Below, piece after piece: positions 37,626-43,600 of a stretch of DNA of 64,000 nt. This DNA comes from Octopus vulgaris. Taxonomy: Eukaryota. The stretch covers positions 138,694,001-138,758,000 of the forward strand of contig OX597817.1 in assembly GCA_951406725.2 (NCBI GenBank), read 5' to 3'. Within the stretch, counting starts at the first letter, position 1. Every line of letters begins with the position of its first letter. The notes beneath the pieces are model-generated. The model was given only the letters and a program-made list of their open reading frames with translations. It was not told the DNA's origin and ran no database searches. The translations under genes and the position numbers were made by a program.

Positions 37626-40360
37626 GCTACATATCGCCCTCCAGATGCCCCAAGTCATATGGGCAAGTTCGAGGACTGCCTTTTAAAAATAGAAGAAGTT
37701 CTAACCACATTAGACCAACACATAAGTGTACTTCTCATGGGAGACTTCAATCTACCGAATGTCAGATGGCCCGAGGGCCTTTCTCTCCCAGGAATGACAA
37801 GATGTGAACGTGGACAGGCGAGGTCCCTCCTGAACCTCACCAACACCCTGTACATGGAGCAAGTAGTACTGCAACCAACCAGAGCAGGTAACACACTGGA
37901 TCTCTGCTTCACAAATAATATGGATCTCATCCATAATGTGAAAGTGACACCGACACTACTCTCGGATCACAACATGGTAGAGCTGACCATGTACGGGCCA
38001 AAAGAGAGCACGGACATGCAGCCTACAAGAAACCCTCAGAATCTTTCCAGCTTGAACTTCAATAAGGCAAACTGGAAACAAATTGAGAAAGAGATCCTCA
38101 AACAAAACTGGCCTGAATGTCTCTCCTCGCCGGACATCGACATGATACTTCAACAATTCATGTCTGTAATGCAAGCCATATGCTACAAATGTGTCCCAGA
38201 GAGAAAGGCCACTGTACACAAGAACAAAATCCCCAGAGAGAGGAAAATTTTAATGAGACGGCGTACAAAAATTTCAAATCGCCTAAACAAACAAATTGAA
38301 AGTAGTGAAAAGTCCCGCCTGAAAATAAAACTGTTGGAAATTGAAAATTGTCTGCAACTTTCCCATGAGAAGGAAAGAGCAGACAAAGAAGCCTGGGCTA
38401 TAGACAACATAAAAACTAACCCCAGAGCTTTCTACAGGTATGCCAAAGAAACGGCTACAGTGCACTGTAGGATAGGGCCACTCCTTGAAAAGGATGGCAC
38501 ACTCACAGGAAAACCAATGAGGGTAAGTGAAATACTGAATGAACAATTCAAGAGTGTTTTCACTCCACCCCTTGGGCATTTCCAAATCAGCAATCCAACT
38601 GACTTCTTTACCACTGCAGATATAGAATCAGAGGCGGCGACGATAAGTTACATCGAGATAAAGGAAGACGATGTAATAAAGGCTATAGATGAAATGAAAA
38701 TAGACTCAGCTACTGGCCCCGATGGATTCCCGGCAATCCTCCTAAAAGTATGTAAGAGAGTCTTAGCAAGACCACTGCAGTCCCTCTTTCAGAGCTTCCT
38801 TGCAGCTGGCAAACTTCCAAGGGGACTGAAGGAAGGTAAAATATGCCCTATTCATAAAGGAGGTAGCAGAGCGGAGGCAAAGAACTACAGACCTATCTCT
38901 CTGACCTCACACATCAGCAAGGTCATGGAACGAATAGTCAGAAGGAAACTAATCACCTTCCTTGAAGAAAATGACTTGCTGCCTGACACCCAACATGGTT
39001 TCCGACCAGGAAGAAGCTGCTTAACTCAGCTCCTGCAGCACTATGACTGGGTGCTGAAACAACTGCTCAACCACTCAAATGTGGAAGTCATATATCTCGA
39101 CTTCGCAAAGGCCTTCGATAAAGTCGATCACGGAATGATATGTCACAGGTTGCGTGATCTTGGCATAGTTGGAAAACTAGGAGAATGGCTTCACGACTTT
39201 CTGAAGAATAGAAGTCAGGTGGTAGTAGCCAATGGGGCCACTTCCATTAACACGCAAATAATGAGTGGTGTTCCACAGGGCACTGTTTTGGGACCACTAC
39301 TGTTCATAATGGCCCTCTCAGACATGCCCTCAGCCACGCAGAGATCCACGATCACAAGTTATGCAGATGATACAAAAGTTTCACAGGCAATACAGAACCC
39401 TGAGGACACTAAAAACCTGCAATGTGAGCTGGACGAAATATACAAGTGGGCTGAAAAGAATAGCATGCAGTTCAATGCTGGAAAGTTTCAAGCTTTATAC
39501 TATCAGCATGCAAAACTGAATGCAATACCCAATGAATACACTGGACCCGGAGGGATTGCAATCCCAGAGGCACAATCAGTGCGTGACCTGGGTATTCACA
39601 TGAGTGATGACGCGACCTTTCATGTACATGTTGCTAAACTGACAGTGAAATGTAGACGGCTGGCTGGCTGGATTCTTAGAACCTTTAGAACAAGAGAACA
39701 AGAAACCATGATGGTCCTCTGGAAGACACTTGTCCTAAGCCACTTTGACTATTGCTCTCAGCTATGGTCACCATCCAGTGTCAAGTTGATCACAGAACTT
39801 GAGGCGATCCAACGAAGCTACACAAAGAAGATAGCCTCTATGCAGAATGTAAGCTACTGGGAAAGACTCAAGAGATTAAAATTATACTCCCTGGAGCGTA
39901 GGCGGGAAAGATATGCCATAATATACATCTGGAAGATCCTGGAGGGAAGTGTCCTGAACTTTGGCATCGAGAGTTACACAAATGCCAGAACTGGGCGCCA
40001 CTGCGTGGTGCCTAGGACTCCAAACCTGCCATCAAGATGTAGGACAAGATTCTGTGATAGCCTGGGCTTCCGAGGCCCACAGCTCTTCAATATCCTCCCG
40101 AAGAACCTGAGAGACCTGCATGGGGTGGATACAGATGTCTTTAAAATGAAGCTGGATCTCTTCCTGTCTGGTGTCCCAGATGAACCAACTTCACGGCAGG
40201 AGGGGCAGATGAGGGCAGCTGCATCAGACTCTCTCATGCACCAAATAGCAGTTGCTAGAAAGCCCCCATGAAGTGAAACCAAGTAGCAACACCAAATGGC
40301 GGTGCCCCAGCATGGCCACAGCTCATAGGCTGGAACTGGAATCAATCAATCAATCAATCA
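37626..40360 (+). mobile_element. Young 5'-truncated CR1/L2-group LINE (partial APE, complete RT, 3'UTR, (ATCA)n tail)
   Basis: Uninterrupted frame from YRPP through [26 protein letters not shown] and YADD to the stop at 40271. (ATCA)5 tail at 40341-40360. Confidence 0.96.
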
Positions 40361-40614
40361 TATGTATGTATATATATATATATGTATGTATATATATATA
40401 TGTATGTATATATATATATATGTATGTATATATATATATATGTATGTATATATATATATATGTATGTATATATATATATATGTATATATATATATATGTA
40501 TGTATATATATATATATGTATGATTGATTGATTGATTGATTGATTCCAGTTCCAGCCTATGAGCTGTGGCCATTGCTGGGGCACCGCCATTTGGTTTTGC
40601 TACTTGGTTTTACT

Positions 40615-43600
40615 TCATGGGGGCTTTCTAGCAACTGCTATTTGGTGCATGAGAGAGTTCGATGCAGCTGCCCTCATCTGCCCCTCCTGCCGTGAAGTTG
40701 GTTCATCTGGGACACCTGATAGGAAGAGATCCAGCTTCATTTTAAAGACATCTGTATCCACCCCATGCAGGTCTCTCAGGTTCTTCGGGAGGATATTGAA
40801 GAGCTGTGGGCCTCGGAAGCCCAGGCTATCACAGAATCTTGTCCTACATCTTGATGGCAGGTTTGGAGTCCTAGGCACCACGCAGTGGCGCCCAGTTCTG
40901 GCATTTGTGTAACTCTCGATGCCAAAGTTCAGGACACTTCCCTCCAGGATCTTCCAGATGTATATTATGGCATATCTTTCCCGCCTACGCTCCAGGGAGT
41001 ATAATTTTAATCTCTTGAGTCTTTCCCAGTAGCTTACATTCTGCATAGAGGCTATCTTCTTTGTGTAGCTTCGTTGGATCGCCTCAAGTTCTGTGATCAA
41101 CTTGACACTGGATGGTGACCATAGCTGAGAGCAATAGTCAAAGTGGCTTAGGACAAGTGTCTTCCAGAGGACCATCATGGTTTCTTGTTCTCTTGTTCTA
41201 AAGGTTCTAAGAATCCAGCCAGCCAGCCGTCTACATTTCACTGTCAGTTTAGCAACATGTACATGAAAGGTCGCGTCATCACTCATGTGAATACCCAGGT
41301 CACGCACTGATTGTGCCTCTGGGATTGCAATCCCTCCGGGTCCAGTGTATTCATTGGGTATTGCATTCAGTTTTGCATGCTGATAGTATAAAGCTTGAAA
41401 CTTTCCAGCATTGAACTGCATGCTATTCTTTTCAGCCCACTTGTATATTTCGTCCAGCTCACATTGCAGGTTTTTAGTGTCCTCAGGGTTCTGTATTGCC
41501 TGTGAAACTTTTGTATCATCTGCATAACTTGTGATCGTGGATCTCTGCGTGGCTGAGGGCATGTCTGAGAGGGCCATTATGAACAGTAGTGGTCCCAAAA
41601 CAGTGCCCTGTGGAACACCACTCATTATTTGCGTGTTAATGGAAGTGGCCCCATTGGCTACTACCACCTGACTTCTATTCTTCAGAAAGTCGTGAAGCCA
41701 TTCTCCTAGTTTTCCAACTATGCCAAGATCACGCAGCCTGTGACATATCATTCCGTGATCGACTTTATCGAAGGCCTTTGCGAAGTCGAGATATATGACT
41801 TCCACATTTGAGTGGTTGAGCAGATGTTTCAGCACCCAGTCATAGTGCTGCAGGAGCTGAGTTAAGCAGCTTCTTCCTGGTCGGAAACCATGTTGGGTGT
41901 CAGGCAGCAAGTCATTTTCTTCAAGGAAGGTGATTAGTTTCCTTCTGACTATTCGTTCCATGACCTTGCTGATGTGTGAGGTCAGAGAGATAGGTCTGTA
42001 GTTCTTTGCCTCCGCTCTGCTACCTCCTTTATGAATAGGGCATATTTTACCTTCCTTCAGTCCCCTTGGAAGTTTGCCAGCTGCAAGGAAGCTCTGAAAG
42101 AGGGACTGCAGTGGTCTTGCTAAGACTCTCTTACATACTTTTAGGAGGATTGCCGGGAATCCATCGGGGCCAGTAGCTGAGTCTATTTTCATTTCATCTA
42201 TAGCCTTTATTACATCGTCTTCCTTTATCTCGATGTAACTTATCGTCGCCGCCTCTGATTCTATATCTGCAGTGGTAAAGAAGTCAGTTGGATTGCTGAT
42301 TTGGAAATGCCCAAGGGGTGGAGTGAAAACACTCTTGAATTGTTCATTCAGTATTTCACTTACCCTCATTGGTTTTCCTGTGAGTGTGCCATCCTTTTCA
42401 AGGAGTGGCCCTATCCTACAGTGCACTGTAGCCGTTTCTTTGGCATACCTGTAGAAAGCTCTGGGGTTAGTTTTTATGTTGTCTATAGCCCAGGCTTCTT
42501 TGTCTGCTCTTTCCTTCTCATGGGAAAGTTGCAGACAATTTTCAATTTCCAACAGTTTTATTTTCAGGCGGGACTTTTCACTACTTTCAATTTGTTTGTT
42601 TAGGCGATTTGAAATTTTTGTACGCCGTCTCATTAAAATTTTCCTCTCTCTGGGGATTTTGTTCTTGTGTACAGTGGCCTTTCTCTCTGGGACACATTTG
42701 TAGCATATGGCTTGCATTACAGACATGAATTGTTGAAGTATCATGTCGATGTCCGGCGAGGAGAGACATTCAGGCCAGTTTTGTTTGAGGATCTCTTTCT
42801 CAATTTGTTTCCAGTTTGCCTTATTGAAGTTCAAGCTGGAAAGATTCTGAGGGTTTCTTGTAGGCTGCATGTCCGTGCTCTCTTTTGGCCCGTACATGGT
42901 CAGCTCTACCATGTTGTGATCCGAGAGTAGTGTCGGTGTCACTTTCACATTATGGATGAGATCCATATTATTTGTGAAGCAGAGATCCAGTGTGTTACCT
43001 GCTCTGGTTGGTTGCAGTATTACTTGCTCCATGTACAGGGTGTTGGTGAGGTTCAGGAGGGACCTCGCCTGTCCACGTTCACATCTTGTCATTCCTGGGA
43101 GAGAAAGGCCCTCGGGCCATCTGACATTCGGTAGATTGAAGTCTCCCATGAGAAGTACACTTATGTGTTGTTCTAATGTGGTTAGAACTTCTTCTATTTT
43201 TAAAAGGCAGTCCTCGAACTTGCCCATATGACTTGGGGCATCTGGAGGGCGATATGTAGCACACACAACTACATCAAGTTGCCTTATGTGTACAATTAGT
43301 GTGTCACACACCGAGTTTGAGTATGACAAAAGGACCTGGGGTGTGAGGTCCCCACGGATGTACATAGCAACTCCTCCATGACTCCTTTCTTTCCTGTCGG
43401 TCCGTAGTACAACATACTGTGGTATGTGTAATTCCGCATCTGCTATGTCCGGTTTCAGATGCGTTTCTGTGAGTGCTATGCATAAGGCTTGATTGCATGC
43501 GACAAAGTCTCTCAGGAACGGGACTTTTGTCCTGTTACTGTGTGTTAGTAAACCTCTGATGTTCAGTAGGAGCATCGAGGTGAGGTGTATGCTGTTGCCG

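What the first reader, a model, noticed from the sequence alone, without database searches (positions are those of the whole stretch)
37626..43260. Two young LINE copies tail-to-tail form a 2.7-kb near-perfect palindrome with a 160-bp (TA) spacer
Seen: 37626-40360 (+) and 40521-43260 (-) are colinear inverted copies with no indel in the coding part (coordinate sum is 80886 at both ends). At least 11 differences are visible (D/E, V/I, Q/H, D/N, some silent, 3'UTR), and the tails differ in length. Both frames are open. Inference: two recent independent insertions into one microsatellite on opposite strands. Read-through transcription would fold into a multi-kb dsRNA, a strong ADAR or endo-siRNA substrate and a plausible type of source for hyperedited copies like 25217-25845. 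Such palindromes are usually unstable, so this one may be recent or polymorphic.
Basis: partly seen in the sequence, partly recalled or inferred. Interest (0 to 1): 0.72.

Follow-up and report, generated by a model that had tools for sequence, protein, structure and literature searches.

The report
Two LINE insertions forming a palindrome
Two young, cut-short copies of a jumping gene that nearly always sits in TA repeats lie tail to tail, most likely from two separate insertions, and form a real 2.7-kb palindrome; whether it is ever transcribed into double-stranded RNA is untested.

Summary
The palindrome is real: arms 37626-40360 (+) and 40521-43260 (-), 11 differences, a 160-bp spacer, both frames open. 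It is lopsided: the minus copy runs on to 43954.

The arms carry alleles of different sublineages. The left arm is 2 differences from copies elsewhere but 11 from its partner. The spacer is not self-complementary. This points to two independent insertions, not a fold-back artefact or a local duplication.

The family is a young CR1-like LINE with at least 355 tails; 34 of 35 other copies end in (TA)n against a 7% background. Among 300 mapped tails, three tail-to-tail pairs lie under 1 kb apart, so the layout recurs. This pair has the longest arms of the three.

The dsRNA reading is unsupported. Both copies lack the 5' UTR, and no host exon was found nearer than about 125 kb. The A-to-G-rich copy at 25217 is real but comes from an older subfamily and is edited away from its 3' end.

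The parts
36590..37625 (.). Left part of the (TA)n/TATG microsatellite; 37561-37588 is a candidate 28-bp target-site duplication of the plus copy
   Evidence: (TATG 54, CATA 5)
37626..40360 (+). Left LINE copy, 5'-truncated inside the endonuclease domain; ORF2 part open to 40271, 3' UTR, (AATC)5 tail at 40340-40359
   Evidence: nearest copies L002 and L003 at 2 differences
40361..40520 (.). Spacer: array of a roughly 20-bp TATG-TATG-(TA)n unit, not self-complementary; 40361-40485 matches 43995-44119 exactly in direct orientation
40521..43260 (-). Part of the right LINE copy that pairs with the left copy; (AATC)6 tail at 40522-40545
   Evidence: nearest copy L022 at 4 differences
40615..43734 (-). 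Whole ORF2 frame of the right copy: AP-type endonuclease and reverse transcriptase, 1039 aa stop to stop
   Evidence: Pfam RVT_1 E 3.7e-30, Exo_endo_phos_2 E 1.9e-11
43261..43954 (-).
   Evidence: (zf-CCCH below curated cut-off)
43955..43987 (-). 5' junction of the right copy: (AT)12 and a repeat of the element's first 9 bases, likely a template jump during integration
43988..44240 (.). Right part of the microsatellite, same unit and same strand polarity as the spacer; its start holds a candidate 35-bp target-site duplication
25217..25845 (+). Separate copy of an older subfamily with an A-to-G cluster; not derived from the palindrome arms

Best explanation
The palindrome consists of two 5'-truncated copies of one young CR1-like LINE family, likely inserted separately, from different source copies and on opposite strands, 160 bp apart in one TA microsatellite. 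Shown: the family nearly always sits in (TA)n, occurs equally on both strands, and clusters in single arrays. Inferred: each copy arose by target-primed reverse transcription at a nick in the TA array. Because (TA)n reads the same on both strands, a second insertion into a favoured array would point either way with equal odds, so tail-to-tail pairs are a by-product of the targeting. The structure is most likely passive. Neither copy has the 5' UTR, so a hairpin RNA would form only under read-through from an outside promoter, for which I found no sign.
For: At 5 of the 11 differing sites both alleles occur among 35 other copies (right-arm allele in 25, 24, 13, 12 and 21 of 35). Two differences are private to the left arm and four to the right. 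The left arm is 2 differences from L002/L003 and the right arm 4 from L022. The arms differ by 11, while the mean between the 35 is 5.0 and only 24 of 595 pairs reach 11 (these 35 were the best hits to either arm). The two 5' ends differ (37626 against 43954). The spacer matches its own reverse complement over only 14 bases. It matches the right flank directly over 125 bases (35 control flanks: 10-71) and the left flank over 45. G lies on the + strand in all three array parts. There is no N gap in 464 kb. Tails: 160 on +, 155 on -, plus 40 of a variant. 34 of 35 3' flanks are TA-rich against 7% of random 40-mers. Of 300 mapped tails, pairs under 1 kb: 3 tail-to-tail and 2 tandem, where uniform placement expects 0.03. 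In the C7 pair the partners also differ at segregating sites.
Against: No spanning long read could be examined; the runs on offer were short-read contigs. Target-site duplications (28 and 35 bp) are only candidates, since periodic arrays match themselves. The tie of the spacer to the left flank (45 bases) is reached or passed by 1 of 35 controls and approached by another. The tail map is incomplete (300 of at least 355). Uniform placement overstates the clustering, because only about 7% of the DNA is TA-rich. The clade was not tested by a tree. The search for host exons was crude and misses small or non-coding exons.
Confidence: 0.86

Rival explanations
1. Assembly artefact: a fold-back read, or two loci joined through the TA spacer.
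For: Near-identical inverted arms around a simple repeat. The family troubles the assembler: 28 of 300 tails lie on contigs numbered above C30, the three whose length I saw being 9-47 kb, and some copies abut N gaps. No spanning read was seen.
Against: The arms carry alleles of different sublineages and have different lengths. The spacer is not palindromic and matches the right flank over 125 bases. There is no gap in 464 kb. Both frames are free of indels.
Confidence: 0.05
2. One insertion followed by a local inverted duplication or gene conversion, or one coupled event that put in both copies.
For: The copies are only 160 bp apart. The 125-base spacer/right-flank match could be a long duplication that starts at the left copy's tail. 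Locus L020 has an 81-base inverted match between its two flanks.
Against: A duplicate would share sublineage alleles, but the arms differ at 5 segregating sites spread from 37715 to 40275. Twin priming gives one tail and 5' ends facing each other (recalled); here there are two tails facing each other.
Confidence: 0.05
3. The locus is transcribed through, folds into a 2.7-kb duplex and feeds ADAR or small-RNA pathways. This could hold on top of the best explanation.
For: Perfect duplex stretches of 1195 and 1015 bp would form if it were transcribed. Coleoids edit repeat RNA widely (PMC9068888, abstract and passages). An ADAR-like copy of the wider family lies 12 kb away.
Against: Both copies lack the 5' UTR. 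The nearest exons found belong to a paired-box gene about 125 kb to the right. The 25217 copy belongs to an older subfamily and is unedited near its 3' end.
Confidence: 0.15

Closest known systems
CR1-type LINEs of the Jockey superfamily (PMC4120745, passages). A repeat annotation of Octopus vulgaris lists 13 recently active CR1 families with 787 insertions (PMC13282606, first third of the text, Table 1)
   Same: Two ORFs, AP-type endonuclease plus RT, no C-terminal zinc knuckle found, short tandem-repeat tail, frequent 5' truncation
   Different: ORF1 has a weak Myb/SANT-like and a CCCH motif; the words CCCH and Myb do not occur in PMC4120745. Strong (TA)n preference, whereas that paper says most APE LINEs have relaxed target choice.
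Microsatellite-specific non-LTR elements: Tx1 and R1 clades, HERO families, Togen for (TG)n (PMC4640811, passages)
   Same: Repeated insertion into one kind of simple repeat, several copies in one array
   Different: That paper places most target-specific families in the early-branched, Tx1 and R1 groups; this one looks CR1-like. Its target is self-complementary, so copies face both ways.
Closely spaced inverted Alu and L1 pairs (PMC10164571, passages)
   Same: Long inverted repeat built from two retroelement insertions; possible hairpin in single-stranded DNA or RNA
   Different: Arms of 2.7 kb at 99.6% with a 160-bp TA spacer; no depletion of inverted pairs is visible in this small sample
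Deaminase-hypermutated retroelements fixed in genomes (APOBEC on LTR elements, PMC4866542, passages)
   Same: For the side copy at 25217: a one-stranded cluster of one substitution type
   Different: A-to-G with 5'-G avoidance, in a LINE of an invertebrate. Not part of the palindrome.

Membership tests
CR1-type LINE | ORF2 with AP endonuclease and RT | tested here: met
   Pfam; motifs GDFN, SDH and YADD in place
CR1-type LINE | No C-terminal CCHC knuckle or RNase H in ORF2 (feature recalled) | tested here: met
   No such Pfam match; no CCHC pattern in the last 250 aa
CR1-type LINE | Short tandem-repeat 3' tail instead of poly(A), frequent 5' truncation (feature recalled) | tested here: met
   (AATC)3-8 in 35 of 35 copies; varied 5' ends
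CR1-type LINE | ORF1 of a described type (RRM/CCHC, PHD, esterase) | tested here: inconclusive
   Only sub-threshold CCCH and Myb/SANT-like matches; it would be unclassified under the scheme in PMC4120745
CR1-type LINE | RT phylogeny places it in CR1 rather than L2, Daphne, Crack or Zenon | not testable with these tools
   No clade-labelled references among the 120 homologues listed; the label 'CR1-like' rests on architecture and a recalled C-terminal motif
Microsatellite-targeting LINE | Most copies sit in one kind of repeat, far above background | tested here: met
   34 of 35 3' flanks against 7%; most truncated 5' ends also abut TA
Microsatellite-targeting LINE | Sequence-specific nicking by its own endonuclease | not testable with these tools
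   TA arrays may be general landing sites in this genome (earlier notes, unchecked)
Fold-back assembly artefact | Arms identical but for random errors; centre and flanks mirror-symmetric | tested here: not met
Twin-priming inversion | One 3' tail, inverted 5' segment not overlapping the rest (feature recalled) | tested here: not met
   Two tails face each other and the arms cover the same 2.7 kb
Penelope-type inverted insertion | RT with GIY-YIG endonuclease, arms from one template | tested here: not met
   AP endonuclease; arms from different sublineages
ADAR substrate locus | Transcribed across both arms; A-to-I edits in locus-specific RNA reads | not testable with these tools
   Only contigs, with the RNA label guessed
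ADAR-type hyperedited copy (25217-25845) | One-stranded A-to-G cluster with 5'-G avoidance (preference recalled) | tested here: met
   45 of 180 against 2 of 125; 4 of 46 after G, Fisher p 0.003

The most novel reading that the evidence does not exclude
A CR1-type LINE has evolved targeting of (TA)n, outside the Tx1 and R1 clades. Because that target is self-complementary and some arrays are hit again and again, the family steadily builds near-perfect multi-kilobase inverted repeats that this genome does not purge. In a lineage with very high ADAR activity these would be a renewable source of long dsRNA, and older pairs of the same kind could be where the edited LINE copies in this genome came from.
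Probability: 0.15. Interest if true: 0.62.

Novelty: new member of a known kind. Interest (0 to 1): 0.3.

Why it matters
As a single locus it matters little: an inverted pair of young retroelements. Its use is practical. The arms can be told apart by private alleles, so it is a clean test site for how long a 2.7-kb palindrome survives in an animal germline and whether gene-poor DNA yields dsRNA. The family-level points are worth more: a CR1-like LINE with strong (TA)n preference and a CCCH-type ORF1, and recurring tail-to-tail pairs as a result of a self-complementary target. I did not find this described in three searches (7, 2 and 0 papers listed), which cannot see Repbase or most subscription papers.

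Tried and rejected
Sequencing runs: 24 were listed, 20 hold the stretch, none is on record as RNA and none is kept as raw reads, so no RNA holder was listed.

Four runs laid on the left arm show the wider family at great depth, dominated by older subfamilies. The two runs guessed to be RNA show the same kinds of difference as the DNA runs (A>G at 3 and 2 places against 3 and 3). Contigs drop rare variants, so this says nothing on editing.

Four runs laid at 100% identity on 40530-40800, to look for right-arm alleles: the allele at 40720 is in X1 at depth 490-1125 and the one at 40596 in X2 at depth 363, so both also exist in other copies. No listed contig joins the right-arm alleles. X1, X3 and X9 have a hole at 40580-40609, which proves nothing. 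Presence or absence in other individuals stays open.

A direct search for facing tails could not be run, so pairs were counted from listed tail positions (300 of at least 355). A DNA search with tail-spacer-tail scored 40 of 3128 candidates and found no second full match, yet two other pairs turned up later, so it was insensitive.

A long (125-160 bp) target-site duplication was considered; 28- and 35-bp registers fit as well. Gene conversion between the arms: no sign, but 37867-39061 has no segregating site between them.

Host gene: 110 top-scoring ORFs from 464 kb were inspected and 51 ORFs (49 of those plus two from the window) were sent to Pfam. Only a PAX exon and a zinc knuckle scored.

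Clade assignment by tree was not attempted for want of labelled references. Supplements of the papers were not read.
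Full report
Observation. Self-comparison shows one long inverted match, 37626-43260. At coordinate sum 80886 the arms align without a gap through the coding part. They differ by 10 substitutions and one 3' UTR indel, with tails of five and six AATC units. It holds the whole ORF2 frame (RVT_1 E 3.7e-30, Exo_endo_phos_2 E 1.9e-11) and the end of ORF1. The palindrome ends where the plus copy is truncated.

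The family. The window's genome (G000, 2.8 Gb) holds many near-identical copies; 40 of about 5,300 candidates were scored in each. One exact 3' motif occurs 315 times (160 +, 155 -, control 0) and a variant 40 times. Longer copies reach at least 0.8 kb beyond the right copy's 5' end, through the ORF1 start and a repeat-rich 5' UTR. Five of them share a further 0.6-1.2 kb. Both arms therefore lack the 5' UTR, where LINE promoters lie (established knowledge). ORF1 of L009 gives only sub-threshold CCCH and Myb/SANT-like matches. The only homologue listed with a species name is from Argonauta hians, at 57% identity, which with earlier notes suggests an octopod host. 'CR1-like' rests on architecture; no tree was built.

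Artefact, duplication or two insertions. Among 35 other copies, both alleles are present at 5 of the 11 differing sites; 2 are private to the left arm and 4 to the right. The left arm is 2 differences from L002 and L003, the right arm 4 from L022, and the arms are 11 apart, against a mean of 5.0 among the 35 (these were the best hits to either arm). A fold-back read or a local duplication would make the arms each other's nearest relatives. The spacer matches its own reverse complement over 14 bases only. It matches the right flank directly over 125 bases (controls 10-71) and the left flank over 45. TATG outnumbers CATA on the + strand in the left flank (54:5), the spacer (16:0) and the right flank (17:2), as expected if one array was split twice. 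No N gap lies in 464 kb around the site. Candidate target-site duplications of 28 and 35 bp exist but cannot be proven in periodic DNA. With 2 and 4 private changes in 2.7 kb, and the scale JC 0.09 = 25 million years given in PMC13282606 (first third read), both copies would be under about half a million years old. That is an inference and an upper bound, since reverse-transcription errors count too.

Why two copies so close. 34 of 35 copies have a TA-rich 3' flank, against 7% of random 40-mers in the 464 kb. I pooled 300 tail positions, out of at least 355. Neighbours under 1 kb: three tail-to-tail (this one at 216 bp between motifs, C63 at 674, C7 at 817) and two tandem; uniform placement expects 0.03. 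Under 10 kb: 5 tail-to-tail, 2 head-to-head and 9 tandem, against 0.32. Restricting the null to TA DNA would raise the expectation up to about 14-fold, so the true excess is smaller. Tail-to-tail distances also leave out element length, which favours that class at short range. The other two close pairs overlap by only 219 bp (C7) and about 360 bp (C63), with pure or near-pure TA spacers. The layout recurs, inverted pairs are not visibly depleted, and this one is the longest of the three. The likely reason (inferred) is a self-complementary target that accepts either orientation, plus favoured arrays. Earlier notes suggest that many unrelated elements crowd TA arrays here, so the preference may not be special to this endonuclease.

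The dsRNA idea. If transcribed, the arms would give perfect duplexes of 1195 and 1015 bp, and coleoids edit repeat RNA widely (PMC9068888, abstract and passages). But neither copy has its 5' UTR. The nearest host exons I found are two paired-box exons about 125 kb to the right, at window-relative positions near 168,050 and 171,190 on +, and none was found in 200 kb to the left (a crude search). Sequencing runs could not address transcription or polymorphism. On instability: in yeast, widening the spacer of an Alu inverted repeat from 12 to 200 bp lowers rearrangement about 20-fold, though long-spaced repeats still pair in single-stranded DNA (PMC10164571, passages).

The copy at 25217-25845. 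At positions conserved in at least 90% of 19 relatives and the two arms, 45 of 180 A are G, against 2 of 125 T>C, 2 of 120 G>A and 4 of 115 C>T. A after G is spared (4 of 46, p 0.003). This fits ADAR. But at 18 of the 34 listed sites where it differs from the left arm other than by A-to-G, 13 or more of the relatives carry its allele. It differs from them by 15-22 non-A-to-G changes and from the arms by 34-35. It has a 220-bp internal gap and no tail, and the edits sit in its 5' part (43 of 128 against 2 of 52). The palindrome is not its source, and the pattern does not fit a tail-to-tail fold-back. Earlier agents noted similar edited copies on other pieces of this genome (unchecked notes).

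Comparison with what is known. Inverted pairs of retroelements and microsatellite-targeting LINEs are both known kinds. PMC4640811 (passages) puts most target-specific families in the early-branched, Tx1 and R1 groups, and PMC4120745 (passages) says most APE LINEs have relaxed targeting. A (TA)n-preferring CR1-like family is therefore a modest addition. Three searches (listings and abstract starts) gave no description of it; PMC13295347 (passages) describes a different Tn-TA signature for Bov-B. PMC9115989 (passages) describes RTE and Dong elements in octopus, and the word CR1 does not occur in it. PMC10294476 (passages) reports CR1 as widespread in molluscs. Look-ups in the scan's own notes found nothing near this place or for this ORF2.

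Verdict. A real but ordinary structure: two separate young insertions in one TA array, probably passive. Interest 0.3.

Noticed in passing
window 25217-25845 (+): Older-subfamily LINE fragment with an ADAR-like A-to-G cluster (45 of 180), a 220-bp internal gap and no tail; best genomic match 88%.
   Followed up: yes
L120 (G000:C7:107769261-107772626) and L134 (G000:C63:10288-11882): Two more tail-to-tail pairs of the young family within single TA arrays; the C7 array holds three copies.
   Followed up: partly
L020:1300-1383 and 4240-4330: A copy whose 5' flank is an 81-base inverted match of its 3' flank: an insertion into the centre of a hairpin, or an inverted duplication made on insertion.
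   Followed up: no
L142, L043, L023, L003 and window 40361-40520: Flanks often consist of several tandem copies of the short unit found at the junction; the insertion may itself expand the target array.
   Followed up: no
window 35575-36134 / 36290-36853: A second, older inverted repeat (89.8% over 569 bp) whose right arm ends in the TA array that holds the palindrome.
   Followed up: no
window about 44860-45050: Short hairpin element with long inverted arms, set in the TA array to the right.
   Followed up: no
window about 44100-44240 and 44740-44870: Direct duplication of the array end plus about 75 unique bases.
   Followed up: no
window 45900-47159 (+): Two ORFs that look like the end of a Penelope-type RT and a GIY-YIG domain (recalled resemblance; no Pfam match at E 0.001).
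   Followed up: partly
window 2400-3700 (+) and 4190-6065 (-), 34326-34844 (-), 58503-59441 (-): Older relatives of the family: an ORF1-like 5' piece facing a 72% ORF2 copy, a 74% 3' fragment, and a distant 32% (protein) copy.
   Followed up: no
L110 (window-relative about 168,050 and 171,188, +): Two paired-box exons of a Pax gene (Pox neuro-like by recall), the nearest host gene found.
   Followed up: partly
G000 contigs numbered above C30: 28 of 300 mapped young tails lie on these contigs, perhaps heterozygous insertions split off by the assembler.
   Followed up: no
L009:290-1195 (+): 302-aa ORF1 frame with weak Myb/SANT-like and CCCH motifs, not among the ORF1 types in the passages read of PMC4120745.
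   Followed up: partly
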